A stretch of 64,000 bases of DNA. Origin: a virus. The stretch is from the IMG/VR virus record IMGVR_UViG_3300023174_000063; one strand, written 5' to 3'. The notes beneath the pieces are model-generated. The model was given only the letters and a program-made list of their open reading frames with translations. It searched no databases and was not told the origin of the DNA. Below are positions 48,832 to 64,000 of this stretch, piece after piece. Both the position numbers and the translations under genes were made by a program. How positions within the stretch are numbered: position 1 is the first letter of the stretch; each line of letters starts with the position of its first letter.

Positions 48832-50202
48832 ATGTCGAGCAATAATCTTGCAGTTCGAACAGTCGATGACTTTTTTGACCATGAATTGCGTGATTACGCA
48901 AAGTATGTAGTCCGTCATCGTGCAATTCCAAGTGTAATTGATGGCTTTAAGCCATCGCAGCGGAAGATTGCACACACTGCCAATACTGTCTGGAAGACAG
49001 GCAACGAAAAGCCCATGAAGGTTTTTCAGCTCGGCGGCCTGGCAGCATCACAGACAATGTTCCACCACGGCTCTCTGGATGGTACAATCATTGGGATGAC
49101 ACAAGAGTTTAAAAACTCAATGTCAATCTTTCAAGGCATTGGCCAGTTTGGCTCTCTTCGGTCTCCCGAGGCAGGTGCTCCTCGATACGTTGGTGTTAAG
49201 TTCAATGAGAATTTTAGACTCCTATACCAGGACTTCGATCTTGTTGAGAAGCAGACCGAAGAAGGCGTCGAAATCGAGCCTAAGTTCTTTCTGCCTATCT
49301 TGCCCACAGTTCTTTTGAACGGCGGAAGTGGCATCGCTGTAGGCTTCGCGACTAACATCTTGAATAGACATCCTGTGCATCTTATTGATGCTTGTCTTGA
49401 TACGTTGAATGGCAAGTCTTGTACTACCTTGAAGCCATGGATTAACGGCTATGTGGGAGATATTGATCTAGTTCCGGGGACCCAAAAATCTTGGGTGCTG
49501 CAGGGTAAGTTCGATGTTAAAAATACTTCCACTGTAGAGATCACAGAGCTTCCACCGTCTTGGACGTACGAGAAGTATGAAGTGCTGCTTGATGGACTAG
49601 TCAATAAGGGCTTGATCCACTCCTATGACGACCATTCAGCTACGACACCGCACTATGTCCTGAAGTTTAATAGGCTGAAGCTAGCAGAGCTTATTCAGAA
49701 GAATAAGCTTGCAGATCTCCTTAAGATGTCAGAGCGTGAGACCGAAAATTTTACGACACTCGATGAGTCGGGTGATCTTAAAATCTTTGATACCGCTGAA
49801 GGCATCGTCGATTATTTCGTAAATTTTCGTCTGAAGTACTACGATATTCGACGTAGCAAGCTCATTGAGAAGATCAACTCAGAGCTGAAGGTCATCGATA
49901 ACCGTTGCAAGTTTATCGATGCGATTCTCTCAGAAACACTTGTCATTAGCGGTCGAAAGAGGGCTGAGATCGAAGCAGATCTTGTGAAGCTGCAGATTGA
50001 CAAGCACGAAGACAGCTACAATTATCTGCTAAACATGGCAATTCACAGCTTGACACAAGAGAAGGTTAAAGAGCTGGTTGCATCTAAGCTTAAGAAGCAG
50101 AAGGAACTCAAGCAGATTGAATCAACAACAGGAAAGAGAATGTATGTCGATGACCTCCAGGATCTTCGCGCCAAGCTCATCAAGCAAGGTTACACTCCCT
50201 GA
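48832..50202 (+). CDS. Type IIA topoisomerase breakage-reunion subunit (T4 gp52-like)
   Basis: RAIPSVIDGFKPSQRK, HHG, GAPRY (catalytic Tyr), NGGSGIAVGFAT, ITELP. Confidence 0.93.
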   Translation: MSSNNLAVRTVDDFFDHELRDYAKYVVRHRAIPSVIDGFKPSQRKIAHTANTVWKTGNEKPMKVFQLGGLAASQTMFHHGSLDGTIIGMTQEFKNSMSIFQGIGQFGSLRSPEAGAPRYVGVKFNENFRLLYQDFDLVEKQTEEGVEIEPKFFLPILPTVLLNGGSGIAVGFATNILNRHPVHLIDACLDTLNGKSCTTLKPWINGYVGDIDLVPGTQKSWVLQGKFDVKNTSTVEITELPPSWTYEKYEVLLDGLVNKGLIHSYDDHSATTPHYVLKFNRLKLAELIQKNKLADLLKMSERETENFTTLDESGDLKIFDTAEGIVDYFVNFRLKYYDIRRSKLIEKINSELKVIDNRCKFIDAILSETLVISGRKRAEIEADLVKLQIDKHEDSYNYLLNMAIHSLTQEKVKELVASKLKKQKELKQIESTTGKRMYVDDLQDLRAKLIKQGYTP

Positions 50203-50632
50203 AAACTGGTCTCCTCCTAGATCTCCTATCGGACTCATACAAGAAGATCTCTGGCCAAATGAATGGAAGATTCTTGTAGCATGTCTGCTGCTCAACCTCA
50301 CGACACGCAAGCAGGTTGATGGCGTCATCTATGAGCTATTTAAAAAATACCCCACTCCGGAGGCCCTGGGAGCTGCAGGAGACATCGAATTGGAGGAGAT
50401 GATCAAACCATTGGGTATGCAGAAGAAACGCTCTGCGACACTGCGGCGGTTCTCTAATGAATATCTCCAAAAGTCATGGAAGACTGCATCTGATCTTCAC
50501 GGGTGTGGCAAATACGCAAATGACTGCTGGCGGATTTTTTGTCTAGGTGAGTGGCGTAGTGTTCAACCTAGCGATCACGCTTTAAACAAGTATGTAGACT
50601 ACCTTAAGAAAGGAGATTCAATCGATGCCTGA
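50144..50632 (+). CDS. MBD4-like HhH-GPD mismatch DNA glycosylase
   Basis: WSPPRSP.GLIQE, WKILVACLLLN, KPLG, LHGCGKYAND.WRIFC..EW..V.P.DH.LNKY, matching the MBD4 glycosylase domain as I recall it. Likely start 50144 or 50150, overlapping the topoisomerase gene. Confidence 0.85.
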   Translation: MSMTSRIFAPSSSSKVTLPENWSPPRSPIGLIQEDLWPNEWKILVACLLLNLTTRKQVDGVIYELFKKYPTPEALGAAGDIELEEMIKPLGMQKKRSATLRRFSNEYLQKSWKTASDLHGCGKYANDCWRIFCLGEWRSVQPSDHALNKYVDYLKKGDSIDA

Positions 50633-51431
50633 GGGACCTGAGGTGCGACGCTTTGGCGACGACTTGGCAAGAGAAATTTCAGGAAAGACACTTGTCGATG
50701 TCAAAGTGCTTACTGGACGATATCTCAAGAAGCCAATTAACGGAATCGAAGATTTTAAGGCGAGACTACCACTTTCAGTTGTAGGCACCGGTGTTCACGG
50801 TAAGTTCTTGTACTGGATTCTAGAAGATTGCAATTTTGTTTTTAATACATTGGGAATGACAGGGCACTGGTCCAAGACGCCGGGTAAACACTCTAGAGTG
50901 GAGTTTAAGTTCTCAAGCGGAGAAAGTGTATTCTTTGAAGACACACGAAATTTCGGCACAATCTCTCTAGAGCGAGGCAAGAATAAGTTCTACAAGAAAA
51001 TAAACAGTCTCGGTCCTGACATGCTGGTAGAAGATGTAACAGACGACGTTTTTGTCGACAGGCTCCAGAAGCATCCTGACTGGCAGATTACAAGTGCCCT
51101 CATGGACCAGTCAGTAATCGCAGGCGTTGGCAATTACGTTAAAGCTGAAGCACTATACAGGTCGAATATATCACCTCTGCGTGCTGTCAGGTCAATTACG
51201 CGGCAAGAAGCAATTCTTCTGAATAAATCAATTAAAGACATTCTGAGAGAGAGCTACAATGCCGGAGGCACAACGGTCAAAGATTATCGGCGAATGGATG
51301 GCTCTTTGGGCGTGTACACATTCGATCTTCGTGTTTATAATAAGAAATATGATCCGGCAGGTAATCCTGTTGTCAAAACATTAACAGAAGATAATAGAAC
51401 CACGCACTGGGTCCCTAACACACAAAAGTGA
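50625..51431 (+). CDS. mutM: Fpg/Nei DNA glycosylase/AP lyase
   Basis: N-terminal MPEGPE, HGKFL, LGMTG, DTRNFG, LGPD, LMDQSVIAGVGNY..EAL; zincless finger RTTHWVP.TQ. Confidence 0.92.
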   Translation: MPEGPEVRRFGDDLAREISGKTLVDVKVLTGRYLKKPINGIEDFKARLPLSVVGTGVHGKFLYWILEDCNFVFNTLGMTGHWSKTPGKHSRVEFKFSSGESVFFEDTRNFGTISLERGKNKFYKKINSLGPDMLVEDVTDDVFVDRLQKHPDWQITSALMDQSVIAGVGNYVKAEALYRSNISPLRAVRSITRQEAILLNKSIKDILRESYNAGGTTVKDYRRMDGSLGVYTFDLRVYNKKYDPAGNPVVKTLTEDNRTTHWVPNTQK

Positions 51432-51439
51432 GGCAGCAA

Positions 51440-51670
51440 ATGGATAACTTAAAGCTTTCGGATGACTCAATTTCTACTATTGCAAAGCTTTTGCAGATTG
51501 CAATTCTAACAGGAACTGACATCGTCGACAATCTTAGAATGGTGACATTCACTGTCAACGATGGAAAGCTTGTACCAACGCAGCAGTTTATAGACAATCT
51601 CAACGGCGGCATCAACTCGATGCTGGATAAAGTTGAGTCAATTAAGAGCGAAACAGAAACGGTCAACTGA
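51440..51670 (+). CDS. Hypothetical protein
   Basis: LSDDSI..IAKLLQ.AILTGTDIVDNLR; RBS-like GAGG. Confidence 0.6.
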   Translation: MDNLKLSDDSISTIAKLLQIAILTGTDIVDNLRMVTFTVNDGKLVPTQQFIDNLNGGINSMLDKVESIKSETETVN

Positions 51671-51678
51671 GGTTAAAA

Positions 51679-52047
51679 ATGTCAGATCGATTTGACGAAA
51701 TGTACGACCAGCAACGTGATTTCAACCAGCTACTGCATGAGCATCGTGGACAGCCTGCATTTCCACTAGATCTCAAGACAAAGCAGAACCAGCAGTATTT
51801 GAAGTCTCTCACACATGAGTGCATGCATGAGCTTTTTGAAGCAAATCTCCTGCTGAAAAACAGCAAGAAGCATCGTGCAACAATCGTCGAAGATTTTGAT
51901 CGTGAGTCCTACAAGGAAGAGCTCTGTGATGCACTGCATTACCTCCTGGGTATTGTCGTGTATTCTGGCATTTCTAAGGAAGAATTTTTCGAGGCCTACA
52001 TGAAAAAAGGCCAGATCAATGTTGATCGTATCAAGAGCGGGTACTAA
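51679..52047 (+). CDS. All-alpha NTP pyrophosphohydrolase (MazG/dimeric dUTPase/dCTPase-like)
   Basis: HELFE...EELCDALHY...Y..K..IN..R...GY. Confidence 0.8.
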   Translation: MSDRFDEMYDQQRDFNQLLHEHRGQPAFPLDLKTKQNQQYLKSLTHECMHELFEANLLLKNSKKHRATIVEDFDRESYKEELCDALHYLLGIVVYSGISKEEFFEAYMKKGQINVDRIKSGY

Positions 52048-52066
52048 ACCCTAAGGAGACCATCAA

Positions 52067-53026
52067 TTGTCTGATTCTAAGTTTGAGTCGCTTGTTAGTG
52101 CTCTGCTAGAGCAGCGTAAATTTTCAGATCTTTTCTATGACACCAAGAACATGTCTGAGTCGGAGCGAGAAGAGTCTTTGCGCCGACTAGCCTTGTGTGC
52201 ACACACAGCTGTCTCAGACATCGTCTCTTCTGTCAACTTTAAGTCGCATCTCAAGACGCATCAGCATGTCGACCATGCGAAGATGCTCTACAAGACAGTT
52301 GATCTTTTTAGGTACACATTGGCAGTACTCAATCTTTGGGATATTGACCCACAAAAGTTTGTAGATGCGTGTGATATCAAGAACAATTTTCTTCATATGC
52401 GTCACCGTTTAGATTCAGCGCCATGGGACGGTCGTCCTGTTGTTGTGTTTGATTGCGATGATGTAATTGCAAAGTTTAGAAGTCATTTTGATAATTTTCT
52501 CGAGAAGAAGTGGTCGATCCCACTAAACCCTGACTCTAACGAGTATTACAATAACGCAGGTCTTGTTGAGGCAGGTCTAAATCCCGAGATTGCATTTAGA
52601 GACTTCTTGAGCTCTGGGCAGATGCGAGAGCTTAAAGTAAATACAAATGTAGCAGACGCAATGAGAATTCTCTCTGATAGAGGTTACTGGATCCAAATTT
52701 TGACTGCTCGTCCTGCTGAGAGCCTTAATTGCTTCTATGACACATTTCACTGGATTGAAAAGAATGGAATTCCATGCAATGCCGTTGGATTTAGTTCTGA
52801 AAAGTACAGGTGGGTAAGCGAGCAACAGTTCTACATGGACGGCAAAATGGTCTGTGCAGTCGATGACTCTCCTAAGCATGCTGCCGAGTTTGCAGCGCAT
52901 GGAGTGAAAGCCATAATGCCTGCTATGCCTTACAATGCACATGTCAAAAACTCTGACACGCTCGAGCGAGTAGACTTTTCTCTGCTGAGCGCTGATGAAA
53001 TTGTCAAGCTTATTGTCGATCTTTAA
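52067..53026 (+). CDS. Fusion: degenerate MazG-like domain + HAD 5'-nucleotidase (NT5C-like)
   Basis: C-terminal VVFDCDDVI, ILTAR, K, VDDSP. The N-terminal domain parallels the upstream MazG fold but lacks the acidic residues. Confidence 0.7.
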   Translation: MSDSKFESLVSALLEQRKFSDLFYDTKNMSESEREESLRRLALCAHTAVSDIVSSVNFKSHLKTHQHVDHAKMLYKTVDLFRYTLAVLNLWDIDPQKFVDACDIKNNFLHMRHRLDSAPWDGRPVVVFDCDDVIAKFRSHFDNFLEKKWSIPLNPDSNEYYNNAGLVEAGLNPEIAFRDFLSSGQMRELKVNTNVADAMRILSDRGYWIQILTARPAESLNCFYDTFHWIEKNGIPCNAVGFSSEKYRWVSEQQFYMDGKMVCAVDDSPKHAAEFAAHGVKAIMPAMPYNAHVKNSDTLERVDFSLLSADEIVKLIVDL

Positions 53027-53036
53027 TAGACTCTTT

Positions 53037-53065
53037 GTGTAAAATTCGAAGAGTTGTGCTACAAT
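53037..53065 (+). promoter_or_regulatory. Early/middle promoter
   Basis: GTGTAA-N17-TACAAT with extended TG. Confidence 0.7.
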
Positions 53066-53086
53066 ATTAAAAAACGAGGAGTAGTG

Positions 53087-54067
53087 ATGCCAATTAATCA
53101 TGATCTAGAGCCGATTGTTCTTCCTATGGAGCTTAAGTTTGGTCGTCCTGTCAAGACAGAATATCACAATGCACTTGATGCACTCAAGGTTGAGCTTGTT
53201 GATGCGCCTACTCGACAGCAGGCTTGGAATGTTGCTTGGCACTTTGTAAAAGCCACATGGGCAGATCGACCTGATATTGACCCGGGTAGCGCAACACCGC
53301 ATGAACTCTCTAAGAATCTTGAGGATGTCTTTGGTGGCAGGACTCTTCCTGCTCCAATGGAGTGCCTAGGCTTCACCTTCCGGCTAAGCGGTCTATCCTT
53401 CCAGGACGTAACCCACATTATTCGTCACCGTGCTGGAACATTTGCGGCACAGTGTACGGGCGACAGAGACCTGAGAGATGACGATGCTGTAATTCCCGAG
53501 CCGGTGCAAAACTCGCCAGAGTTTCTCGAGCGCTGGAAGAAGATCGTCGATGAATCGAAGCAGCTTTATGCTGATATGACAGACTCGAAGGTCGTCTCGA
53601 TGATGGATGCTCGCCTCATTCTTCCAAAGTGCATGACGTCTTTCTACTATATGCGTCTGCCACTCAAGGATCTCATCGGCTTTATCTACCAGCGCCAGGA
53701 TAGGCAGATTCAAACAGCTGCCGACAATATCCTTGCAGTCAGAATGGCAGTTGAAGTTGCAAAGGTTTTGCCCGAGTTTACAGCTCTCGTCGACTTCAAT
53801 AAGCCCGATATGCACTACATTAAGACATTCCGAGTCAAGGAGGGCGATAAGTTTGTATCTCGTGGTACAAACCTCTACTGGCCTGAGCCCAAGAATGATA
53901 AGTTCGACTTTCACCCTGAGGACACGATCTATCAATGTAGGAGAGAAGAGCTTAATGGAACACACGGCGACGGTGAACAGAAGAAGTTCCTCCAGCACTG
54001 GAACAGCGGTGTCGCAGAGTTTGATGAGATTAAGACAAATTACGCATCATGGAAGGCAGGTAAGTAA
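53087..54067 (+). CDS. thyX: Flavin-dependent thymidylate synthase (ThyX)-like protein, divergent motif
   Basis: E...FTF.LSG.S..VTHIIRHR, DARLILP, F...R....Q; motif reads RHRAGTFAAQCTGDR; RBS GAGGAG before 53087. Confidence 0.75.
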   Translation: MPINHDLEPIVLPMELKFGRPVKTEYHNALDALKVELVDAPTRQQAWNVAWHFVKATWADRPDIDPGSATPHELSKNLEDVFGGRTLPAPMECLGFTFRLSGLSFQDVTHIIRHRAGTFAAQCTGDRDLRDDDAVIPEPVQNSPEFLERWKKIVDESKQLYADMTDSKVVSMMDARLILPKCMTSFYYMRLPLKDLIGFIYQRQDRQIQTAADNILAVRMAVEVAKVLPEFTALVDFNKPDMHYIKTFRVKEGDKFVSRGTNLYWPEPKNDKFDFHPEDTIYQCRREELNGTHGDGEQKKFLQHWNSGVAEFDEIKTNYASWKAGK

Positions 54068-54531
54068 TGAGTTTCGAAAGAAAGCAGTCAGTCTATCTCG
54101 CTAGCGGTTGGTTTTCTCCCGACCAGGACAAACAGCTCACAAAGCTCGAGAAGCTCTTTGATGATCGTTCAAGCTGGATTAATCTTGCATCTCCTCGTCG
54201 AATCTTTGTCTGCCCGCCTGACGCATCTCTTGAGGTGCAAGACAATGTTTTCAAGGGCAACATGAAGCATATCAGAGAGTGCGATTTTACTCTTGTCAAT
54301 ACAACTTATCGTGATATTGGCACGATTTGGGAAGCCGGCGCTGCATTTGCGCTTGATCGAAAGATCATTTACTTTTGTGAGAACCTGCCTGCCGGCGCAA
54401 AGTTCAATCTAATGCTTTCACGAAGCGGAATTAAGGTTTGTACAACTTTTGAACAACTTGAAGACTACCTCAATCGATGTGAAGCAGCAGGTGAGCTTCT
54501 ATATGAGCCGTACGACAAGGAAATTGAGTGA
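54067..54531 (+). CDS. Nucleoside 2-deoxyribosyltransferase/nucleotide N-glycosidase family protein
   Basis: VYLASGWFS, F..NM..I..CD, DIGTIWEAG.A, NLML. Confidence 0.85.
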   Translation: MSFERKQSVYLASGWFSPDQDKQLTKLEKLFDDRSSWINLASPRRIFVCPPDASLEVQDNVFKGNMKHIRECDFTLVNTTYRDIGTIWEAGAAFALDRKIIYFCENLPAGAKFNLMLSRSGIKVCTTFEQLEDYLNRCEAAGELLYEPYDKEIE

Positions 54532-54585
54532 GATTCGTCGATCTAAAACTGATCACAAAGTGCTATTGAACACAGGAGATGGTAG

Positions 54586-55569
54586 ATGAACGTTTTTATC
54601 ACAGGACATAATGGATTTATCGCTATCAATCTTGTGAGCGCCTTCAAAAGACTTGGTCATAAAGTCATTAATTTTAATGAGGCACGAAATCGTCTCATCA
54701 CAAACAGCAAGGGAGAGCCATGTGTCTATCAAAATAGCGAAGATGCATGGCACCAATTTTTTCTAGACACAAAGACTGATGTTATTGTGCACAATGCAGC
54801 GCTAGTAGGCACTGATGTTGTGGCACTAAACCCAGAAGAATCTACACTGAGCAATGTCATGGGTACTCACACAATTTGTCGCGTCGCACGAAAAGCTTCT
54901 ATCCCTGTGTGCTATCTGGGCACATCAGTCATCTATGACACTCCTAAGTACCAGAACGCTGCGATTACTGAGAGAAGTGAACAGCGTCCAGGCACTTTTT
55001 ATGGGGTACAGAAGTTGGCCGGAGAACATATAGTCATGTCAACTGCGTCTGAGTGGCTCATCATGCGACCACTTTTTGCTTATGGCGGCTTAGGCGATAT
55101 GAACTCTCTTCCTGCAAAGACATTTTATGCACAGCATCGAGGCGTTGCCAGCATTCCAATGTTTCTAGATCCTGAAAAGTCAAAAGACTACATGCATGTT
55201 GAAGACTTTTGTGATGCAGTTGCGCTAGGGTGCGATGCAGGTCTTTGGCAGCAAGATTTTAATATTTCAGCTGAGCTGCCACTCAAGACAGGTGAAATCG
55301 TCAACCTGATGTCGTCTGTTTGTGGCCATGACTTGGAAAAGATTATTAAGTGGCACCCAGAGACGGATTACCTTGGAAATCATATTCTTTCATCAGAAAA
55401 ATTTAGGAAAGCTACTACTTGGACACCTAAATTTACATTAGCCAAAGGGCTGAAGCAGTCATGGGAAAGTATCCTCGGCGCCTCTAGTCAGTACAACCCT
55501 CTGACGTATTTGGATGAAGCTGAAAAAAGAGGAGTGGATCTAGTTCAATATTTTCCAAAGAGTACGTGA
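54586..55569 (+). CDS. NAD-dependent NDP-sugar epimerase/dehydratase (extended SDR)
   Basis: VFITGHNGFIA, HNAA, TSVIY, YGVQK, RP..AYG, KDYMHVEDF. Confidence 0.88.
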   Translation: MNVFITGHNGFIAINLVSAFKRLGHKVINFNEARNRLITNSKGEPCVYQNSEDAWHQFFLDTKTDVIVHNAALVGTDVVALNPEESTLSNVMGTHTICRVARKASIPVCYLGTSVIYDTPKYQNAAITERSEQRPGTFYGVQKLAGEHIVMSTASEWLIMRPLFAYGGLGDMNSLPAKTFYAQHRGVASIPMFLDPEKSKDYMHVEDFCDAVALGCDAGLWQQDFNISAELPLKTGEIVNLMSSVCGHDLEKIIKWHPETDYLGNHILSSEKFRKATTWTPKFTLAKGLKQSWESILGASSQYNPLTYLDEAEKRGVDLVQYFPKST

Positions 55570-56195: not shown

Positions 56196-56948
56196 ATGAA
56201 ACTCTATCATGTTACGCCCGTTGAAAATGCCAAAAGTATTATTAAGACCGGAACGAAAAATAACACTAAACACAAATTTAACCGTGGTGCTTTTTATTTT
56301 TTTTGTAGCTTGAGACATGCAATAAGTCATGCCGTCGCTGAGGAAAATGAACACCGCGGAAAAAACCTATGTATACTGCAATTTGAAATGGAGCCAGACC
56401 CTGCAAATTTCAATATTGACACTGAAGCTAGTTACGAGTTTATTCACGCCTGGATCCGAAAGAATTCAGAAGAAATTTCTAGAGTTACCGGTTATAAATT
56501 AATGGAGCCGGCTAGTAAATTAACCGATAAATTTTCAGATGATCGAGAAGCGCCCCGATGGTTGTATAACCCAGACCCAAATAGACCTCCATCGGACCCG
56601 CGCTACGCCGCGCGCGGCCTCGTCGGCATGTCGTCGACGTACGACATAAAAATACCGCCCGACGACCCTTTTTTTTCTGCAAAAAAGGAAGACGCCGTAA
56701 AGGACAGATTATATGCATTTATTAGTAGCTTTCCACAGCTAGAGGCGTCAATGGAAAAATTTGCATTTGATCACCCCCGGGTACGTAATGGTGAAGTTAG
56801 GCTAGCACTTGCATATTTTGGTCCGCCAGTCTTTCCAGAGAAAGTATTGTCACCCGAGGGAGCTGAAATACAGCTGCAGCAAGAAGGGTTTGCTAGCAGA
56901 AAAATAGTCGTTGAAAGATGGCAGCGTCTAGCTGGAATCTTAAAGTAG
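56196..56948 (+). CDS. Putative ADP-ribosyltransferase-fold protein with scaffold-like C-terminal tag
   Basis: LYHVT...AKSIIKTG...GAFYF..S..HA..HA...ILQF resembles the H-Y type ART N-terminus; ends ERWQRLAGILK. Confidence 0.5.
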   Translation: MKLYHVTPVENAKSIIKTGTKNNTKHKFNRGAFYFFCSLRHAISHAVAEENEHRGKNLCILQFEMEPDPANFNIDTEASYEFIHAWIRKNSEEISRVTGYKLMEPASKLTDKFSDDREAPRWLYNPDPNRPPSDPRYAARGLVGMSSTYDIKIPPDDPFFSAKKEDAVKDRLYAFISSFPQLEASMEKFAFDHPRVRNGEVRLALAYFGPPVFPEKVLSPEGAEIQLQQEGFASRKIVVERWQRLAGILK

Positions 56949-57502: not shown

Positions 57503-57513
57503 GGAGGTTCTCT

Positions 57514-58031: not shown

Positions 58032-58255
58032 TAAAACGAAAGATTCCTGGTGACAGTTATAAGATGACTCTCCCATTCGAGCCAGGCACAGTCTGGTATC
58101 TCGCAGATAAAATACCCTTAGATGAACATGTTATTGAGAAGGGTGCAACTGTTCTAGTTCTGCATAAGCAGCGAAATGTAGTTGACACGCTAATTGAAGG
58201 TCAAATACTACGCTGGGATGTGTGGTCATTGTCTGATGCAGTACGTATCGTGTAA
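58028..58255 (+). CDS. Small beta-barrel-like hypothetical protein (paralogue of the upstream gene)
   Basis: FEPGTVWYL...GATVLVL...DTLIEG; ATGA coupling. Confidence 0.6.
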   Translation: MIKRKIPGDSYKMTLPFEPGTVWYLADKIPLDEHVIEKGATVLVLHKQRNVVDTLIEGQILRWDVWSLSDAVRIV

Positions 58256-58278
58256 TTCTTGTGTGTTCGATGTATAAT
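58250..58278 (+). promoter_or_regulatory. Early/middle promoter for dnaE
   Basis: GTGTAA-N17-TATAAT. Confidence 0.7.
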
Positions 58279-58306
58279 AAGCTTATAAGCAAAGCATGGA
58301 GAAAAT

Positions 58307-61300
58307 ATGTCGTTTGACAGTGCAGCTCTACAAAATCTCTTGAAAATTTCACCGCCCAAGAACTTTACAGGGCTCCATTCACACTCGTCGTTTTCGACGT
58401 TCGATGGGCTCGGTTATCCAAAGGATCACATCGAGTTCATCACTAGCGAAGCACAGGGCATGGACTCGTGGGCACTGACTGACCACGGCAACGGCTCAGG
58501 CCTCGCACACGCTCGAGCTGCTGCTGTTAAGAAGCAAAAGTCAGGCAAGAAGTATCGCCAGCTTTACGGCGTTGAGTTCTATTTTGTTCCCTCACTTGAT
58601 GAGTGGCAAAAGCAGATAGATGCCCACCAGCAGTCTGTAAAGGACGCAAAGTCTTCTCGCGAGGCACAGCTCCTCGCTGAGTCTCCCACAATCATCAAGC
58701 CTGCCGACGAGGATGATGAGCAGGGCGGTCACGTTATTGAAAACGAGGAGGAGACAAAGGAATCGAAGACAGACAAGCCCGAGTGGAAGCGATACTACCA
58801 CCTTGTTGTCATCGCCAAAAACAGAGTGGGTCTCGGCAATCTCTTCACGCTCGTAAAGAAGTCATTCAAGCACGGCTTCTACCGATTCCCGAGAATCGAT
58901 TATAAGATGTTGAAAGAGCACGGCGAAGGTCTTGTCGTCAGCACGGCATGTGTTGGCGGCCTTCCATCGTCGCTTATCTACCGCGAGTTTGCCGGCAAGT
59001 CTTTCAATGAACTTACGCCTGATCTCTTGACAGGACCTGCTGCAGAGGCTGCCGTCAAGAATATTCGCGGACGTCTTGATAATATGGCAGATCGTTTTGT
59101 TGACTGCGTCGGCCGTGACAATTTCTTCCTGGAACTCCAGTTTAACGATCTTCCTGCACAGCATCTGACAAATCAGTGTCTCATCGAGCTTTCGCAGCGC
59201 ACAGGTCTTCCTCTTGTCGCAACGGCTGACTCACACTTCCCGTCTCCTGACAAGTGGCAGGCACGTGAGCTCTACAAGAAGCTTGGCTGGATTGGCGCAA
59301 AGCTTGACAAGACCATGATTCCCAAGCTCGAAGACATGAAGACGATGTTGTACCCGAAGAATGCCGAGCAGATGTGGGAAGAGTTTAAGAAGGGCTACAC
59401 ACAGTACTCCTTCTATCAGGGTCATGAAGAACTAGTTCGTGATGCAATCGAGCGCACACACGATATTGCTTGGCAGAAGTGCGAAGACACCTGGGTCGAC
59501 ACCAGCGTCAAGCTCCCAATTCACCGCTTCGAGGACAAGACACCATTTCAGCGCCTTGTTGAGCTTGCAAAGGACCATCTCGCCCAGGAAGGTCTTGCTG
59601 ACAATCCCGTCTATGTTGAGCGTCTCAAGGAGGAGCTTTCTGACATCAAGCATCTTGGTCATGAATCGTACTTCCTTACGATGTACGAGGTCTTCAAGCG
59701 CGCTGAGAAGCGTACGCTTATGGGTCCTGGTCGTGGCTCTGCTGCTGGTTCACTTCTAAACTTCCTGCTCGGCATCACACAGTTTGACCCACTTCCTTAC
59801 GGTCTGCTTTGGGGTCGTTTTCTTGGGCGCTGGCGCGTCTCATATCCCGATATCGACACTGACGCTGCCAATCGTGACATTCTTATTGATTCTGCACGAG
59901 AGCTCTACGGCGATGATGCGGTCATTCCAGTATCTAACTTCAATACTCTCAAGCTGAAGTCTCTGATCAAGGACATCTCTAAGTTCTATGACGTGCCCTT
60001 CGAGGAGGTGAATGCCATGACTGGTCCCCTCCAGGACGAGGTCATGCCTCACGCTCGAGATGACGACCAGGAGAAGTCTGTGTTCGTCTTGAAGCACGAG
60101 GACTGCATGAAGTACTCAGAGGGCTACAGAACCTTCATGGAGAAATATCCTGACGTTGCGGCGCACGTAGAAACGCTATTCATGGAGAATAGAAGCATCG
60201 GTCGTCACGCTGGCGGCGTCATTCTTGCAGATCCCACCGCGCTTGAGCAGTCAATGCCAATCATCAGTGTGCGCGGTGAACTCCAGACGCCGTGGACCGA
60301 GGGCATGAACTTTCGCAATCTTGAGGACAATGGATTCTTGAAGTTTGACTTCTTGGGTCTCACTCTCTTGAAGGACGTCGAGGACTGCATTGCTCGAATT
60401 CTGCGTCGTAGAGGCAATAAGAATCCCACCTTTGCGGACGTTAAGGCTTTCTTTGACGAGAACATTAACTGCCGCTATCACAAGCTTGACGACCCTGCTG
60501 TCTACAAGCACGTCTATCACCAGCGTCGCAAGACGGGCGTATTTCAGTTTACCAACGAGGGGGCTAGAAAGCTCTGTGAGGAGGCGCGCCCTTCATCCAT
60601 CGAAGAGGTTGCAGCTATTACAGCAATTTATCGGCCGGGCCCCCTCAAGGCAAATGTGCACAGAAAGTACATCAAGGCTCGTGAGGAGTTCGGCGCAGGT
60701 CGAATGAAGTTTGATCATCCTATTATTGAAGAAATTCTAGGACCTACTGCTGGATTCTTAATCTATCAGGAGCAGTTCATGGAGTTGGCTCGACGTCTGG
60801 GCGGCTTTACGAACGCAGAGTCAGATCAGCTTCGCAAGACTCTTGTTAAGAAGTCGCTGGATACTCTCGACAAGAAGGGTTCTGAGAAGGAGCTAGCAAA
60901 GCAGAAGTTCATCGAGGGCGCGCAGAAGCTCCACGGGTTGAGTCCTGCCATTACAGAGCCGCTCTGGCAGACAATCGATTTCATGTCTGTATACTGCTTC
61001 AATAAGTCTCACAGCGTTTCTTATGCAATTGATTCTTACTACGCTGCATGGTTCCACACGCACTATGAGACTGATTGGCTGGCAACTTGTCTACAATCTG
61101 AGAATAATAATCCTGACGGTCTAGAGAAGACGATCACAGAGATTAAGTCGTACGGCTACAAGTTCATGCAATCAGACATCAACTATTCAGGTGATGTGTG
61201 GATGTATTCTAATGAGCTCCAAGCATTTATTCCGCCTCTCAGCTCTGTCAAGGGTGTAGGAACCACTGCCATGGAAGAAATCATGAAGAATCGTCCTTAC

Positions 61301-61981
61301 AAGAATCTTGATGATCTTCTCTACGATGCGAGTGGTGAGTGGCGACACTCTAAGGTCAATAAGACTGCCATGCGATCACTCTGCCTTATCGAGGCTTTCT
61401 CCTCGCTTGAAGAGCTGAAGAGCGGTCGAATTAGAAATCATAGGCAGCTTTTGGCTCTCCTGACAGATGAGAAGAACTATGACACTCTTCGCAAGGGTCG
61501 CTTTGGATTGTCTCCAACACAGATCAAGAAGCTGCAGAAGAGCGGCGAGGTTGTTGTACCCATCATTGATAAGCTTATTGAGACTTACGAGGGGCTGCCC
61601 GACTGGAGTCGAACTGAGAAGCTTAAGAATCTCATGGAGATGACGTCCAGTGTCAGCAATGACCTGCTCTTCCCATCATCGTTAATGCGCAAAGTGAAAG
61701 AGAAGTCAGTGCCTTCAGTCTTTCAAATTCCAGGGGGTACAAAGGGCATTGGTTGGTTCTGCGTGACGGAAGTTCACCAGAAGTCAACCAAGAACGGAAA
61801 GAGCTTTTTGCGCCTTAGAATAATTGACAATGAGAATAATTCGACATGGCTGCGCTGCTGGGGCAAGTTTGAAGAAACACCGGATGAGTTCTCTCTCTGG
61901 ATCGGTGAAATCGAAAATGACTCCAGCTGGGGCATGTCAACATCTTCCTGGAAGATTAAGCAGCTCAAGGCATTTGAGTAA
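58307..61981 (+). CDS. dnaE: DNA polymerase III alpha subunit (family C)
   Basis: PHP domain HSHS.FS.FDG, TDHG, GVE, DSH; GPGRGSAAGSL, PDIDTD, HAGGV, KFDFLGL, GVFQF, YRPGP, YQEQ, FNKSHS. Confidence 0.97.
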   Translation: MSFDSAALQNLLKISPPKNFTGLHSHSSFSTFDGLGYPKDHIEFITSEAQGMDSWALTDHGNGSGLAHARAAAVKKQKSGKKYRQLYGVEFYFVPSLDEWQKQIDAHQQSVKDAKSSREAQLLAESPTIIKPADEDDEQGGHVIENEEETKESKTDKPEWKRYYHLVVIAKNRVGLGNLFTLVKKSFKHGFYRFPRIDYKMLKEHGEGLVVSTACVGGLPSSLIYREFAGKSFNELTPDLLTGPAAEAAVKNIRGRLDNMADRFVDCVGRDNFFLELQFNDLPAQHLTNQCLIELSQRTGLPLVATADSHFPSPDKWQARELYKKLGWIGAKLDKTMIPKLEDMKTMLYPKNAEQMWEEFKKGYTQYSFYQGHEELVRDAIERTHDIAWQKCEDTWVDTSVKLPIHRFEDKTPFQRLVELAKDHLAQEGLADNPVYVERLKEELSDIKHLGHESYFLTMYEVFKRAEKRTLMGPGRGSAAGSLLNFLLGITQFDPLPYGLLWGRFLGRWRVSYPDIDTDAANRDILIDSARELYGDDAVIPVSNFNTLKLKSLIKDISKFYDVPFEEVNAMTGPLQDEVMPHARDDDQEKSVFVLKHEDCMKYSEGYRTFMEKYPDVAAHVETLFMENRSIGRHAGGVILADPTALEQSMPIISVRGELQTPWTEGMNFRNLEDNGFLKFDFLGLTLLKDVEDCIARILRRRGNKNPTFADVKAFFDENINCRYHKLDDPAVYKHVYHQRRKTGVFQFTNEGARKLCEEARPSSIEEVAAITAIYRPGPLKANVHRKYIKAREEFGAGRMKFDHPIIEEILGPTAGFLIYQEQFMELARRLGGFTNAESDQLRKTLVKKSLDTLDKKGSEKELAKQKFIEGAQKLHGLSPAITEPLWQTIDFMSVYCFNKSHSVSYAIDSYYAAWFHTHYETDWLATCLQSENNNPDGLEKTITEIKSYGYKFMQSDINYSGDVWMYSNELQAFIPPLSSVKGVGTTAMEEIMKNRPYKNLDDLLYDASGEWRHSKVNKTAMRSLCLIEAFSSLEELKSGRIRNHRQLLALLTDEKNYDTLRKGRFGLSPTQIKKLQKSGEVVVPIIDKLIETYEGLPDWSRTEKLKNLMEMTSSVSNDLLFPSSLMRKVKEKSVPSVFQIPGGTKGIGWFCVTEVHQKSTKNGKSFLRLRIIDNENNSTWLRCWGKFEETPDEFSLWIGEIENDSSWGMSTSSWKIKQLKAFE

Positions 61982-61990
61982 AACTAAATT

Positions 61991-62019
61991 TTGTACACAT
62001 CGAGTGCATTGTGTATAAT
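61991..62019 (+). promoter_or_regulatory. Early/middle promoter
   Basis: TTGTAC-N17-TATAAT. Confidence 0.65.
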
Positions 62020-62048
62020 ACGTTGAATCCAACAAGGAGATGTTCATA

Positions 62049-63005
62049 ATGCTGAACTTGAAGTGCATTACTATTGAGGGCCCTGACTGCGCCGGCAAGA
62101 GCTCTCTCTATAATGATATTCATCGAGAAACTAGCTTTAGATGGAATATTCAAGACAGAGGTCAGCTAAGCATGGTTTGCTATGCTAGACTCTATGAACG
62201 AGGTAGTGAAATAGTTGATCATTGGCGCGCAGAACTTCATGAGTACCTTAAAAATCTAAATCAACGTCTAATTGTGCTTCTGCCGCCTCTTCGTGTGCTA
62301 CACCAGCGCCTGGAGTCACGAGGCGACCCCATGCAGAATGCAGAGTCCCTGTCTAAACTTTACGAGATATTTGATGACGAGCTTAAGATTTTGCACGCTG
62401 AAGATCTGCCTAATGTGTTGGTTATTAGAGGCGAAAATTCCCTAGATGAAAACGTTAAGCATTGCCTGTCATGGTTGGCGCATGCGGGCATTTCCACTGC
62501 TAGAAATATTGCCAGCGACGTAGAGGCTGCAGTATTTGCATCACCTAAGAATGAAATATGTGGTTTAAATTTTGAACTCAATTTCAAGAGCGGCACCGCC
62601 GAGTTTCAGGCGCTGGAGAATCCAGCAGTAATGCAGTATCTGCCAGAAGAGGTGTATTACTCTGAAATACTGTCAAAAGTTTTAAAGAATATTGACGACG
62701 AAATCAATGGTAGAAATCCTTACTCACGCCCTGAGAACCCGCGGAGTACGCGCCGTTTTATCTTTGCGCAAGATAGCTGCATTTCTACTATTCATACAAT
62801 GATTCGCGACGATTCGATGACAATGAAGGTCTACTGTAGATCATCAAATGTTACCAATACATTTCCCCATGATCTAGGATTTATCTGCTATCTTTTCACT
62901 AGAGTTTATCATCATTTATTTCACCGTACGCTATGGCGACCAACAAATTGCTCTCTGCGAGTAGAGATTGGATCTGCACATTTACCCGCAATGGCGGGCC
63001 ACTAA
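62049..63005 (+). CDS. Fusion: dNMP kinase + truncated thymidylate-synthase (ThyA)-fold domain
   Basis: N-terminal IEGPDCAGKS, DRG.LS..Y, RL..RGD; C-terminal STRRFI...SCIS...YCRSSN....PHD...GSAH. Confidence 0.75.
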   Translation: MLNLKCITIEGPDCAGKSSLYNDIHRETSFRWNIQDRGQLSMVCYARLYERGSEIVDHWRAELHEYLKNLNQRLIVLLPPLRVLHQRLESRGDPMQNAESLSKLYEIFDDELKILHAEDLPNVLVIRGENSLDENVKHCLSWLAHAGISTARNIASDVEAAVFASPKNEICGLNFELNFKSGTAEFQALENPAVMQYLPEEVYYSEILSKVLKNIDDEINGRNPYSRPENPRSTRRFIFAQDSCISTIHTMIRDDSMTMKVYCRSSNVTNTFPHDLGFICYLFTRVYHHLFHRTLWRPTNCSLRVEIGSAHLPAMAGH

Positions 63006-63024
63006 TATTACTGGGAGTAACGCT

Positions 63025-64000
63025 ATGCATGTTTTAGTCACAGGTGGCGCAGGTTTTATTGGCAGCAATCTTGTTCACGCTCTTGTCCAAAAAGGCTGGA
63101 TCGTCGACGTTATTGATGATTTAAGCAGTGGTAATTTAGATAATCTTGCAGGTCTAGAGACAAGGTTTTTGACGACTAATATCCTGCATTTCTATGAGGA
63201 GAATGTAGAGTCAGGTGACCATAAAAAAGTTCGTTTTATTACTGGAGACTTTGCAAATCTCAATGTTCTTCGACGCATAGAGGCTGGAAAATATCGCTAT
63301 ATCTTCCATCTAGCTGCAGTACCTAGAGTTGGTTTTAGTGTTCAATTTCCTGCAGAAACCGCAGAAACTAATCTTTTAAAGACAATCAAGCTTTTTGAAT
63401 CTGCTTCAAAGTCTGGATCTTGTCGTGTTATTTTCTCTTCGTCATCTTCTGTGTACGGCAACGCATCTGTCAGACCCACGCCTGAGTCCATTACAAAGCA
63501 CCCGAGGTCGCCATATGCGCTACAGAAACTACACTGCGAAGATTATGCACGTCTTTTTAGAGAACTTCACGGATTAGATTTTGTTGCGCTTCGATATTTT
63601 AATGTCTATGGGCCTCGACAGTTTGGCAACTCTCCTTACGCAACCGCCATCTCAGCTTGGTGCACTGCAGTTCACACAGGAAAGCCGCTTCGAAGCGACG
63701 GCGACGGCACACAGTCTAGAGATCTCACGTATGTCGATGACGTAGTAGAAGCAAATATTAAGGCAGCATTGGCTGGAGCATCATGTTCAGGAGAGAGCTA
63801 TAATATTGCTGCCGGTAAGCCTGTTTCAAATCTCAAGATTCTCGAGGCGTTTCGAGATCGTTACGGAGATAAAGTCACTATAACAAAAGCACCTTGGCGC
63901 CCCGGCGACGTGATGCATACAGAGGCCGACCCTATGAAGGCACGGCTACAACTAGGATTTACGTGCAGTGTAGACTTTGACACTGGTCTGCGCAAGACAT
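63025..64000 (+). CDS. NDP-sugar 4-epimerase (extended SDR, GalE/WbpP-like); 3'-truncated and missing from the ORF track
   Basis: Translated by hand: MHVLVTGGAGFIGSNL, IDDLSSG, FHLAA, SSSSVYG, PYALQK, LRYFNVYGPRQ, GDGTQSRD; RBS GGGAG. Confidence 0.92.
   Translation, partial: MHVLVTGGAGFIGSNLVHALVQKGWIVDVIDDLSSGNLDNLAGLETRFLTTNILHFYEENVESGDHKKVRFITGDFANLNVLRRIEAGKYRYIFHLAAVPRVGFSVQFPAETAETNLLKTIKLFESASKSGSCRVIFSSSSSVYGNASVRPTPESITKHPRSPYALQKLHCEDYARLFRELHGLDFVALRYFNVYGPRQFGNSPYATAISAWCTAVHTGKPLRSDGDGTQSRDLTYVDDVVEANIKAALAGASCSGESYNIAAGKPVSNLKILEAFRDRYGDKVTITKAPWRPGDVMHTEADPMKARLQLGFTCSVDFDTGLRKT

What the first reader, a model, noticed from the sequence alone, without database searches (positions are those of the whole stretch)
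50144..64000. Candidate novel cytosine (hyper)modification pathway with its own pool-cleaning and repair enzymes
Seen: one region groups an MBD4-like glycosylase, Fpg, a MazG/dCTPase-like enzyme, a MazG-HAD nucleotidase fusion, a divergent ThyX, an NDT-family N-glycosidase, two NDP-sugar SDR epimerases, a phage DnaE and a dNMP-kinase/ThyA-fold fusion. Established: T4 replaces C using the same logic (dCTPase, TS-fold dCMP hydroxymethylase, dNMP kinase, own polymerase, sugar transfer). NDT-family MilB and DNPH1 act on 5-hydroxymethyl pyrimidine nucleotides, and MBD4 removes deamination products of modified C paired with G. Inference: the phage makes a non-canonical, possibly sugar-bearing pyrimidine nucleotide, depletes the canonical one and repairs its deamination products. 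The combination of an altered ThyX, a minimal ThyA and two epimerases matches no pathway I can name. No glycosyltransferase is visible in the window.
Basis: partly seen in the sequence, partly recalled or inferred. Interest (0 to 1): 0.88.

Follow-up and report, generated by a model that had tools for sequence, protein, structure and literature searches.

The report
Phage pyrimidine-modification module with hybrid synthase pair
A widespread group of uncultured T4-like phages carries a conserved gene set, built around an altered ThyX enzyme and a cut-down cytosine-type thymidylate-synthase domain fused to a kinase, that probably makes a modified cytosine nucleotide for the phage's DNA by an undescribed enzyme pair.

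Summary
The glycosylase is a true MBD4 catalytic domain (E 4.6e-53). The kinase/ThyA-fold fusion is real (AF2 pLDDT 92; best folds are T4 dCMP hydroxymethylase and phage dCMP hydroxylase AfhB). It keeps the catalytic Cys and the cytosine-specifying Asp.

New evidence:
- The order MazG, MazG~HAD, ThyX-like, NDT, SDR1, DnaE, kinase~miniThyA, SDR2 recurs in 52 IMG/VR loci.
- Four large relatives, one judged complete, carry a canonical ThyX as well as the divergent one.
- ThyX-like, mini-ThyA, NDT, a P-loop kinase and a 5'-deoxynucleotidase recur together in two unrelated lineages (Geobacillus phage GR1 and a PolB phage). There mini-ThyA is a separate gene overlapping or abutting the end of ThyX-like.
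- A syntenic cousin has, in the same slot, a GT-like gene, a kinase, the SDR2 orthologue and a full-length dCMP-hydroxymethylase-type ThyA, and no divergent ThyX.

Verdict: probably a pre-replicative C5-modified deoxycytidine pathway of the known T4/RB69 kind, run by an undescribed ThyX-paralogue plus mini-ThyA pair (about 0.5). The chemical group, sugar attachment and any DNA glycosyltransferase remain unshown. The main rival is a dC-to-dT nucleotide supply route. First-stage notes on this same genome, read in overlapping windows, made the same points.

The parts
50144..50632 (+). MBD4-type HhH-GPD DNA glycosylase (G:T / G:U / G:5-substituted-U mismatch type)
   Evidence: Profile of 10 homologues against PDB: MBD4 glycosylase domains at E 4.6e-53 over the full length, next best MIG/MutY at 6e-7. 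Present in 11 of 52 related loci.
50625..51431 (+). Fpg/Nei family DNA glycosylase
   Evidence: Pfam Fapy_DNA_glyco, H2TH and Fapy_DNA_glyco_C, all above their cut-offs. Conserved in about half of the related loci.
51428..51670 (+). Conserved 80-aa protein of no known family that always precedes MazG
   Evidence: No Pfam or PHROG hit. Homologues directly upstream of MazG in 38 loci. An 80-aa ORF stands in the same position in cousin G009, but its homology was not tested.
51679..52047 (+). MazG-like all-alpha dNTP pyrophosphatase (candidate dCTPase/dUTPase)
   Evidence: Pfam dUTPase_2/PRA-PH and phrog_12184. Invariant ExxE and EExxD. 49% identical orthologue in cousin G009.
52067..53026 (+). 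Degenerate MazG-like domain fused to an NT5C/HAD 5'(3')-deoxyribonucleotidase
   Evidence: Pfam NT5C over residues 123-296. Clusters with MazG by BLAST. The alignment shows the HAD motifs kept and the MazG acidic motifs lost. An HD YfbR-like nucleotidase takes this role in GR1 and L078.
53087..54067 (+). Divergent ThyX paralogue (RHR kept; Ser88 to Cys, His53 to Cys, Arg90 region rewired; about 90-aa N- and C-terminal additions)
   Evidence: Pfam Thy1 55 bits over a partial match; NCBIfam thyX 31.6 bits against a cut-off of 87.9. Alignment to T. maritima ThyX. ThyX fold by Foldseek. More than 1000 90%-identity clusters in metagenomes. Relatives also hold a canonical ThyX.
54067..54531 (+). Nucleoside 2-deoxyribosyltransferase family enzyme
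   Evidence: Pfam Nuc_deoxyrib_tr 49 bits. Profile against PDB: NDT 6evs at 1.5e-14, DNPH1 only at 0.6; the catalytic Glu in GTIxExG is invariant. Next to ThyX-like in 49 loci and present in the GR1 and L078 modules.
54586..55569 (+). Extended SDR (SDR1), NDP-sugar dehydratase/epimerase/reductase type, subfamily unresolved
   Evidence: Pfam Epimerase and RmlD_sub_bind. Every NCBIfam equivalog falls far below its cut-off. Best PDB match is a dTDP-glucose dehydratase-like protein at 4e-13. Follows NDT in 40 loci.
58307..61981 (+). Phage DnaE-type replicative polymerase, in the middle of the module
   Evidence: Pfam PHP, DNA_pol3_alpha, finger and HHH_6. 53-83% identical in relatives.
62040..63005 (+). 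YorR/TMK-like P-loop nucleotide kinase fused to a roughly 150-aa minimal ThyA-fold domain (Cys247, Asp278, Arg238/239, Arg267-Ser268, His314; RSSN)
   Evidence: Alignment. Profile against PDB: YorR 1e-8 and T4 dCMP hydroxymethylase 0.005, with Cys and Asp aligned to C148 and D179. AF2 pLDDT 92. Foldseek top hits are T4 dCH, AfhB, MilA and TS. VIA gives YorR at Z 14.3. 373 family clusters at 50% identity.
62968..64000 (+). Extended SDR (SDR2), UDP-hexose/HexNAc 4-epimerase-like; runs off the window end
   Evidence: Pfam Epimerase 188 bits and GDP_Man_Dehyd 177 bits. The full-length orthologue is closest to 6dnt (1e-58) and to WbgU/WbpP. 41% identical to the SDR lying between the kinase and the ThyA homologue in G009.

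Best explanation
The region is the nucleotide-metabolism and replication block of an uncultured Far-T4-like phage. Inside it is a conserved module that most likely makes a C5-substituted deoxycytidine nucleotide before replication.

Inferred flow:
1. MazG turns dCTP (and perhaps dUTP) into the monophosphate.
2. The minimal ThyA-fold domain binds dCMP through its Asp and Arg residues and attacks C6 with its Cys.
3. That domain lacks the folate-binding half of ThyA. The ThyX paralogue, a flavoprotein fold that keeps the RHR motif, is therefore inferred to supply the C5 substituent or the reduced flavin.
4. The fused YorR/TMK-like kinase phosphorylates the product. Host NDK and the phage DnaE then put it into DNA.
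5. The HAD nucleotidase and NDT drain or recycle unwanted deoxynucleotides.
6. MBD4-like and Nei-like glycosylases repair deaminated or oxidised products.
7. SDR2, and perhaps SDR1, make an NDP-sugar for later glycosylation by a transferase not yet identified.

Shown: gene identities, folds, conserved residues, synteny and co-occurrence across lineages. Inferred: substrate, product, cooperation of the two enzymes, and presence of the base in DNA.
For: 1. Synteny over 52 loci. The kinase~miniThyA fusion is present in every relative whose contig reaches that position.
2. The four large relatives G001-G004 each hold a canonical ThyX (129-174 bits) plus the divergent one (55-70 bits). One of them is rated 100% complete. 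None holds a ThyA above threshold.
3. The mini-ThyA keeps Cys, the RR pair, RS, His and the Asp aligned with T4 dCH D179, the dCMP-specifying position (meaning of these residues from PMC13326640).
4. Fold matches: T4 dCH, AfhB dCMP hydroxylase and MilA.
5. Independent lineages. In GR1, ThyX-like is followed at once by a standalone mini-ThyA, with NDT, an HD nucleotidase, a P-loop kinase and a GT nearby. L078 has a tight operon of kinase, NDT, HD nucleotidase, ThyX-like, mini-ThyA and UDG~PolB.
6. Cousin G009 (RecA 58%, DnaB 53%, MazG 49% identical) has, downstream of DnaE (after an HNH gene and a small ORF), SDR, a GT-like gene, a kinase, the SDR2 orthologue and a full-length ThyA homologue. 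That homologue has L143D, D169 and N177D, the hydroxymethylase signature. G009 holds only a canonical ThyX.
7. The known RB69/DLP3/RL38J1 clusters also pair a YorR/TMK-fold kinase with the cytosine-modifying ThyA homologue.
8. A true MBD4 domain is present.
Against: - Nothing here bears on the virion DNA.
- The ThyX paralogue keeps the equivalents of Arg147 and Arg174. From my own knowledge these bind the phosphate and the uracil O4 of dUMP, which fits a uracil rather than a cytosine substrate.
- GR1 has no other annotated thymidylate synthase, so there the paralogue could simply be its TS.
- Relatives keep a canonical ThyX, TK and a dCMP deaminase, all of which serve ordinary dTTP supply.
- Position 169 of mini-ThyA is about half Asp and half Asn across the family, so it gives no stable product signature.
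- No GT lies in or next to the module in this clade. The SDRs are missing from the GR1 and L078 modules.
- The pattern of a full ThyA without the ThyX paralogue, against a mini-ThyA with it, rests on a single cousin genome rated 52% complete.
Confidence: 0.5

Rival explanations
1. Ordinary nucleotide economy. The module converts C deoxynucleotides into dTTP and salvages deoxyribose for an AT-rich genome (GC about 42%). The steps would be MazG (dCTP to dCMP), nucleotidase (to dC), deaminase and NDT (to dU/dT), TK, a ThyX-type synthase and a TMK-like kinase. This resembles the E. coli deoxycytidine route to thymidylate. The DNA would be canonical, the divergent ThyX a second thymidylate synthase, and the mini-ThyA a dCMP-binding or regulatory remnant.
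For: Every step has a candidate gene: MazG, an NT5C/HAD or YfbR-like nucleotidase, dCMP deaminase, TK, a Thy1 fold and a TMK-like kinase. The NDT is closest to true transferases. GR1 shows no other TS. The uracil-contacting Arg equivalents are kept in the paralogue. GC is 0.39-0.50. The deoxycytidine pathway itself is from my own knowledge (Weiss 2007), not checked here.
Against: It does not explain a second, rewired ThyX beside a canonical one in all four large relatives. It does not explain purifying conservation of Cys, Asp, Arg and His in a cytosine-type TS domain across 373 clusters. It does not explain the overlapping or abutting reading frames of ThyX-like and mini-ThyA in two other lineages. 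Nor does it explain the cousin's GT/kinase/SDR/hydroxymethylase-type cassette at the same slot, or the MBD4 domain.
Confidence: 0.22
2. The modified base is a thymine/uracil derivative. The ThyX paralogue would convert dUMP into a 5-substituted dUMP such as 5-hydroxymethyl-dUMP. The NT5C-type nucleotidase would remove dTMP, and the kinase and TK would handle the analogue. This follows the logic of SPO1 or the thymidine-hypermodifying phages.
For: The paralogue keeps the Arg147 and Arg174 equivalents and the RHR motif. NT5C-family enzymes prefer dUMP/dTMP (family description). A dCMP deaminase supplies dUMP. MBD4 also removes 5-hydroxymethyl-U (own knowledge). GR1 carries amidoligase and GGCT genes of the kind predicted for base decoration.
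Against: Canonical ThyX and TK are retained in relatives, so dTMP is still being made. The partner TS-fold domain carries the cytosine-type Asp in all 14 fused homologues, all 10 standalone representatives aligned and GR1, never Asn, and the cousin's full-length homologue has it too. The cousin's cassette is of the dCMP-hydroxymethylase type.
Confidence: 0.12
3. The two SDRs have nothing to do with DNA. They would supply NDP-sugars for glycosylating virion proteins or altering the host surface, and they sit in the nucleotide block only by shared early expression. This sub-claim is compatible with any reading of the core module.
For: The complete relative G003 has a separate island with a third SDR, a nucleotidyltransferase~HAD fusion, HtrL, GT4, GT6, GT11 and two GT2 genes, next to very large ORFs of 1085 and 2356 aa that are presumably structural. 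The SDRs are absent from the GR1 and L078 modules. No GT adjoins the module in this clade.
Against: The SDR2 orthologue lies between the kinase and the ThyA homologue, and a second SDR lies next to a GT-like gene, in cousin G009. SDR1 follows NDT in 40 loci. SDR2 follows the kinase fusion wherever the contig reaches. Known cytosine-glycosylating phages encode their own NDP-sugar enzymes in the same cluster.
Confidence: 0.4

Closest known systems
T4-type glucosyl-5-hydroxymethylcytosine pathway (gp56 dCTPase, gp42 dCMP hydroxymethylase, gp1 dNMP kinase, alpha/beta-glucosyltransferases)
   Same: Same logic and several of the same folds. There is a dNTP pyrophosphatase, a TS-superfamily domain with catalytic Cys and the cytosine-specifying Asp (best sequence and fold hit is T4 dCH), a dedicated kinase, the phage's own polymerase, a dCMP deaminase and TK. 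The phage is a distant T4 relative by its gp23 capsid, gp19, gp15 and baseplate proteins.
   Different: The TS-fold domain is only about 150 aa, gets no PF00303 hit, lacks the folate-binding half and is fused to a YorR/TMK-fold kinase rather than accompanied by a gp1-type one. A ThyX paralogue always travels with it. The polymerase is DnaE, not family B. No alpha- or beta-GT homologue was found.
Glycosylated 5-hydroxycytosine pathway of RB69, DLP3, RL38J1 and HY126 (flavin-dependent 5hodCMP synthase/AfhB, adjacent YorR/TMK-fold nucleotide kinase, dCTPase, HAD phosphatase, NDP-sugar enzymes, DNA glycosyltransferases; PMC13326640)
   Same: AfhB is the second-best fold match (9iqu and 9iqc). The window protein carries both published signature residues, N177D and D169N (RSSN...D). 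A YorR-fold kinase is paired with the synthase, here by fusion. The chemistry needs a flavin, and a flavoprotein-fold partner is present. Sugar-nucleotide enzymes are encoded in the block.
   Different: The known synthases are stand-alone homologues of about 217-320 aa that bind the flavin themselves, and no ThyX paralogue is involved. Position 169 is Asp in most relatives of the window protein and about half Asp, half Asn family-wide. The sugar enzymes here are SDR epimerases, not the arabinose-5-P isomerase/kinase/uridylyltransferase set. No GT-B DNA glycosyltransferase adjoins the module.
Flavin-dependent thymidylate synthase ThyX and its paralogue PolB (UMP/dUMP C5-methylase of polyoxin biosynthesis)
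   Same: Thy1 fold (Foldseek E 1e-8 to ThyX, 5e-7 to PolB). The RHR motif and the Arg147 and Arg174 equivalents are kept.
   Different: The signature Ser is Cys, with the S88C mutant structure as the best PDB sequence hit. His53 is Cys in this clade. The Arg90/Tyr91 stretch reads G-D-R. There are about 90 extra residues at each end. The score is far below the thyX equivalog cut-off (31.6 against 87.9). It coexists with a canonical ThyX.
Mammalian MBD4 glycosylase domain
   Same: Full-length match to the catalytic domain at E 4.6e-53, with the catalytic Asp context kept.
   Different: There is no methyl-CpG-binding domain. It is phage-encoded and sits beside an Fpg/Nei gene. Substrate range is untested.

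Membership tests
ThyX (flavin-dependent thymidylate synthase, PF02511 / TIGR02170) | Thy1 fold | tested here: met
   Pfam Thy1 at 55 bits. Foldseek on the AF2 model gives ThyX structures at E 1e-8 and TM(target) 0.6-0.69 (model pLDDT only 68).
ThyX (flavin-dependent thymidylate synthase, PF02511 / TIGR02170) | Signature RHR-x7-S-x-R-Y, the substrate-binding Ser/Arg/Tyr after the RHR motif | tested here: not met
   RHR is kept, but the Ser position is an invariant Cys and the next residues read T-G-D-R. The canonical ThyX of relative G003 does carry RHR...S-R-R-Y.
ThyX (flavin-dependent thymidylate synthase, PF02511 / TIGR02170) | Scores as the thyX equivalog | tested here: not met
   TIGR02170 gives 31.6 bits against a cut-off of 87.9.
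ThyX (flavin-dependent thymidylate synthase, PF02511 / TIGR02170) | Makes dTMP from dUMP | not testable with these tools
   Needs thyA complementation or an enzyme assay. Indirectly, relatives hold a separate canonical ThyX.
ThyA superfamily, cytosine-modifying branch (dCMP hydroxymethylase / 5hodCMP synthase) | ThyA fold with a catalytic Cys | tested here: met
   AF2 pLDDT 92. Foldseek top hits are T4 dCH, AfhB, TS and MilA. Cys247 aligns with dCH C148.
ThyA superfamily, cytosine-modifying branch (dCMP hydroxymethylase / 5hodCMP synthase) | Asp at the E. coli ThyA Asn177 position (dCMP specificity) | tested here: met
   Invariant Asp278 aligns with dCH D179. It is also invariant in the standalone forms and in GR1.
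ThyA superfamily, cytosine-modifying branch (dCMP hydroxymethylase / 5hodCMP synthase) | Asn at the Asp169 position, the published 5hodCMP-synthase signature | tested here: inconclusive
   The window protein, L009 and GR1 have RSSN, while most close relatives have RSTD. Among 109 parsed family representatives the count is D 50, N 46, E 7, H 4.
ThyA superfamily, cytosine-modifying branch (dCMP hydroxymethylase / 5hodCMP synthase) | Full-length domain including the cofactor-binding N-terminal half (PF00303 match) | tested here: not met
   No PF00303 hit for the window protein or for the relatives' genomes. The domain is about 150 aa, against 217-320 aa for known members. The cousin's full-length homologue scores 98.6 bits.
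T4/RB69-type pre-replicative cytosine hypermodification system | dCTP-specific pyrophosphatase | tested here: inconclusive
   The MazG-like enzyme has an intact metal site. Its only structural-sequence relatives are weak matches to dimeric dUTPases, and specificity is unknown.
T4/RB69-type pre-replicative cytosine hypermodification system | Dedicated kinase for the modified dNMP | tested here: met
   YorR/TMK fold at Z 14.3 with an EGxDxxGK(S/T)(S/T) P-loop. This is the same fold as the cluster kinases of DLP3, RB69 and RL38J1. Substrate untested.
T4/RB69-type pre-replicative cytosine hypermodification system | DNA glycosyltransferase in or near the cluster | tested here: not met
   No GT family appears in any scanned window ORF. 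The GT-like gene of cousin G009 has no homologue in the window's complete ORFs, the related loci or G003. GTs of G003 lie about 120 kb away in a separate island.
T4/RB69-type pre-replicative cytosine hypermodification system | Non-canonical cytosine in virion DNA | not testable with these tools
   Needs LC-MS or long-read signal data.
MBD4 glycosylase domain | Full-length similarity to the catalytic domain with the catalytic Asp | tested here: met
   E 4.6e-53 over profile positions 1-141, with GKYGxDxYRIF kept.
Nucleoside 2-deoxyribosyltransferase family (PF05014) | Family match with the catalytic Glu; true NDT or DNPH1 type | tested here: met
   Pfam 49 bits. Invariant Glu89. NDT 6evs scores 1.5e-14 against 0.6 for DNPH1, and no MilB chain was listed. 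Transferase versus hydrolase activity is untested.

The most novel reading that the evidence does not exclude
The ThyX paralogue and the minimal ThyA domain form a two-component, hybrid pyrimidine C5-transferase or hydroxylase. The cut-down ThyA part would bind dCMP and activate it by Cys addition at C6. The ThyX-derived flavoprotein would replace the lost folate-binding half, delivering a flavin-carried one-carbon unit or reduced flavin and oxygen. That would merge the two unrelated thymidylate-synthase chemistries in one pathway. It would also mark a large, globally distributed group of aquatic phages, plus Geobacillus phage GR1, as carriers of a modified cytosine.
Probability: 0.25. Interest if true: 0.9.

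Novelty: new variant of a known kind. Interest (0 to 1): 0.8.

Why it matters
Pre-replicative pyrimidine modification by thymidylate-synthase relatives is the main known route to hypermodified phage DNA. Every described case uses a full-length ThyA homologue.

Here a ThyX paralogue and a half-size cytosine-type ThyA domain travel together in three unrelated phage lineages. One of those lineages is very abundant in metagenomes, with more than 1000 protein clusters at 90% identity.

If they cooperate, this is a new enzyme solution and possibly a new base. That would bear on how these phages evade restriction and CRISPR, on enzyme evolution from a folate to a flavin cofactor, and on sequencing and assembly biases for a major environmental phage group.

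It is also directly testable. Geobacillus phage GR1 is cultured, and the published in vivo plasmid LC-MS assay can be applied to the two genes.

Tried and rejected
- Megablast of the region against phage records found no match.
- No whole genome is held for the window.
- An exact-pattern search for the window's end in viral contigs found none.
- Identity look-ups of two window proteins found nothing on record, so the window could not be extended. Relatives were used instead.
- phmmer of the ThyX paralogue against PDB found nothing. A profile was needed.
- Complex prediction of the ThyX paralogue with mini-ThyA gave no verdict (scores 0.00, 0.43, 0.00). I count it neither way.
- Contigs of P0230 and P0255 were too short to test for a ThyX paralogue. 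The 334-aa neighbour in L076 is not ThyX-like (hhalign probability 0.3).
- A search with the cousin's ThyA homologue found only itself and one weak hit, so the complementary-distribution argument stays at n = 1.
- I considered and rejected DNPH1-like specificity for the NDT. No MilB chain was among the matches either.
- I considered and rejected the 250-aa ORF at 56196-56948 as a second epimerase. It has no family hit.
- Literature searches found no paper describing this ThyX-paralogue module.

Full report
**What is there**

The window is one strand-coherent stretch of an uncultured phage. It has a T4-type capsid (Pfam Gp23, 265 bits), tail tube, sheath stabiliser and baseplate, gp32, RecA, DnaB, a class I RNR and a two-subunit type II topoisomerase. 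The nearest cultured capsids are Flavobacterium phage immuto and Microcystis phage Mel-JY01 at 43-45% identity. No phage record matches at the DNA level.

Three identifications became much firmer with profiles or models.

- The weak HhH-GPD hit is a full-length MBD4 catalytic domain (E 4.6e-53).
- The 321-aa protein is a two-domain fusion modelled at pLDDT 92. Its N-terminal part is a YorR/thymidylate-kinase fold (Z 14.3).
- Its C-terminal part of about 150 residues is a ThyA fold. The best matches are T4 dCMP hydroxymethylase and the phage dCMP hydroxylase AfhB.

**The module is conserved**

A search with the ThyX-like protein returned 52 IMG/VR loci at 55-85% identity, on contigs up to 284 kb. 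More than 1000 90%-identity clusters exist in metagenomes.

The shared order is: 80-aa protein, MazG, MazG~HAD, ThyX-like, NDT, SDR1, (variable genes), DnaE, kinase~miniThyA, SDR2. In relatives this continues with thymidine kinase, a DHH phosphoesterase and a dCMP deaminase. The fusion protein is found in every relative whose contig reaches that position, including the most distant clade.

**The ThyX-like gene is an extra copy**

Four large relatives, one of them rated 100% complete, each hold two Thy1 genes. One is a canonical ThyX (129-174 bits, with RHR...S-R-R-Y) elsewhere in the genome. The other is the divergent one (55-70 bits). None holds a ThyA above threshold.

The divergent protein differs from canonical ThyX in these ways:

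- It keeps RHR and the equivalents of T. maritima Arg147 and Arg174.
- It has Cys for Ser88, so that the S88C mutant structure is its best PDB sequence hit.
- It has Cys for His53 in this clade.
- The Arg90/Tyr91 stretch is rewired.
- It has about 90 added residues at each end.
- It scores far below the thyX equivalog cut-off.

**The mini-ThyA is a cytosine-type domain**

Fourteen fused homologues share invariant Glu, Tyr, the Arg-Arg pair, Cys, Arg-Ser, Asp and His. The profile aligns Cys247 and Asp278 with C148 and D179 of T4 dCMP hydroxymethylase. The region between the Glu helix and the Arg pair, and the C-terminal tail, are missing; from my own knowledge of ThyA these carry its folate contacts. 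PF00303 does not detect the domain.

The family has 373 clusters at 50% identity, and both fused and standalone forms exist. The residue at ThyA position 169 was recently proposed to mark 5-hydroxy-dCMP synthases when it is Asn (PMC13326640). It is Asn in the window protein but Asp in most close relatives, and about half Asp, half Asn across the family. It therefore does not fix the product.

**Independent lineages carry the same core**

- Geobacillus phage GR1, a 79-kb siphovirus, has a 49%-identical ThyX-like gene with the same Cys. A 151-aa standalone mini-ThyA (RSSN, Asp, Cys) follows it at once. In the same block are NDT, an HD nucleotidase, a P-loop kinase, a nitroreductase, a glycosyltransferase and DnaE.
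- A viral contig with a UDG~PolB polymerase (L078) has a tightly packed run of kinase, NDT, YfbR-like HD 5'-deoxynucleotidase, ThyX-like and mini-ThyA, with overlapping reading frames.

The core is therefore five genes: a P-loop kinase, NDT, a 5'-deoxynucleotidase (HAD or HD), the ThyX paralogue and mini-ThyA. In all three lineages it stands next to the polymerase.

**A cousin shows the classical version**

Contig G009 is syntenic with the window (RecA 58%, DnaB 53%, MazG 49%, DnaE 40% identical). Upstream of DnaE it has a canonical ThyX, an 80-aa ORF in the position of the window's small protein, and MazG. Downstream of DnaE, after an HNH gene and a small ORF, it has an SDR, a GT-like gene, a TMK/dNK-like kinase, the SDR2 orthologue (41% to the L009 SDR2 orthologue), a full-length ThyA homologue, TK and a SOD-like gene.

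The ThyA homologue scores 98.6 bits for PF00303. It has Asp at positions 143 and 177 and keeps Asp169, the published hydroxymethylase signature. G009 has no divergent ThyX in its 187 kb, which CheckV rates 52% complete.

This ties the kinase, SDR2 and the TS-fold gene into one cassette of the T4/RB69 kind. It also suggests that the ThyX paralogue appears where the TS-fold enzyme has lost its cofactor half. That last inference rests on one genome.

**Accessory parts**

- MazG has the intact ExxE/EExxD metal site. The fused MazG-like domain has lost it, while its HAD domain is intact.
- NDT is nearest to genuine deoxyribosyltransferases.
- SDR2 is nearest to UDP-HexNAc/hexose 4-epimerases. SDR1 is unresolved.
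- No glycosyltransferase family is hit in the window.
- The complete relative G003 has a distant island with a third SDR and five GTs, next to very large ORFs that are presumably structural. The SDRs could therefore feed non-DNA glycosylation.

**Reading**

The best-supported explanation, at about 0.5, is a pre-replicative pathway to a C5-substituted deoxycytidine nucleotide. It is of the same kind as the T4 and RB69/DLP3 pathways, but it is run by an undescribed pair of a ThyX paralogue and a minimal ThyA domain.

The main rival, at about 0.22, is an expanded dC-to-dT supply and salvage route feeding canonical DNA. A uracil-derived modification (about 0.12) is kept alive by the conserved uracil-type Arg residues in the paralogue.

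Sugar attachment is plausible but unshown. The complex prediction gave no verdict. The open literature searched holds no description of this module.

First-stage notes on overlapping windows of the same genome made the same sequence observations. I re-tested them here.

Noticed in passing
L066:522-10016 (relative G003, 140.5-150 kb): A glycosylation island holds an SDR epimerase, an NTP-transferase~HAD fusion, an HtrL/YibB-like gene, GT4, GT6, GT11 (fucosyltransferase family) and two GT2 genes. It lies directly before ORFs of 481, 1085 and 2356 aa. It could serve virion or host-surface glycosylation, or DNA.
   Followed up: partly
L004, L013 (DnaE) and L084:4817-8275 (RNR of G009): In L004 DnaE is split around a DUF7487/endonuclease-I-like gene of about 300 aa. 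In L013 a gene of the same family precedes a DnaE that is split by other ORFs. The RNR large subunit of G009 is 1152 aa against 834 aa in the window. These look like homing endonuclease or intein insertions in replication genes.
   Followed up: no
L037:13838-about 18000 and L048: Tandem arrays of 6-9 paralogous genes of about 160 aa each (cluster c14) lie inside the nucleotide block of two relatives. They have no family assignment.
   Followed up: no
window 43390-45477: A 695-aa repeat protein gives weak pentapeptide, bactofilin and Ig-like hits in a GC-rich patch (GC 0.52). It lies between the RNR and the topoisomerase, and homologues occur in several relatives.
   Followed up: no
window 34182-35405: A 407-aa family-A polymerase-like protein (38 bits) is encoded in addition to DnaE. 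It is conserved in G003 and G009.
   Followed up: no
L078:7748-10636: A family-B DNA polymerase has an N-terminal UDG-superfamily domain. It stands directly after the ThyX-like and mini-ThyA pair.
   Followed up: no
L053 (GR1 record 24.7-41.3 kb): In GR1 the ThyX-like gene is preceded by an NAD(P)H nitroreductase, a possible flavin reductase. The block also holds a 459-aa glycosyltransferase, NUDIX, guanylate kinase, amidoligase and gamma-glutamylcyclotransferase genes. GR1 also has a second NDT gene elsewhere in the record, at 8.5 kb.
   Followed up: partly
window 18637-19998 (- strand): This is the only sizeable minus-strand ORF in the window (453 aa). It lies among tail genes and has no Pfam family.
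   Followed up: no
window 56196-56948: A 250-aa ORF between SDR1 and DnaE has no Pfam, PHROG or NCBIfam hit and no homologue in the related loci. Another first-stage note calls it ART-like, which I did not check.
   Followed up: no
L059:14170-14859, L006:19731-20522, L077:11134-12000: A protein with an Fe/Mn superoxide-dismutase C-terminal domain is conserved just downstream of the TK, DHH and deaminase genes across the group, including cousin G009.
   Followed up: no
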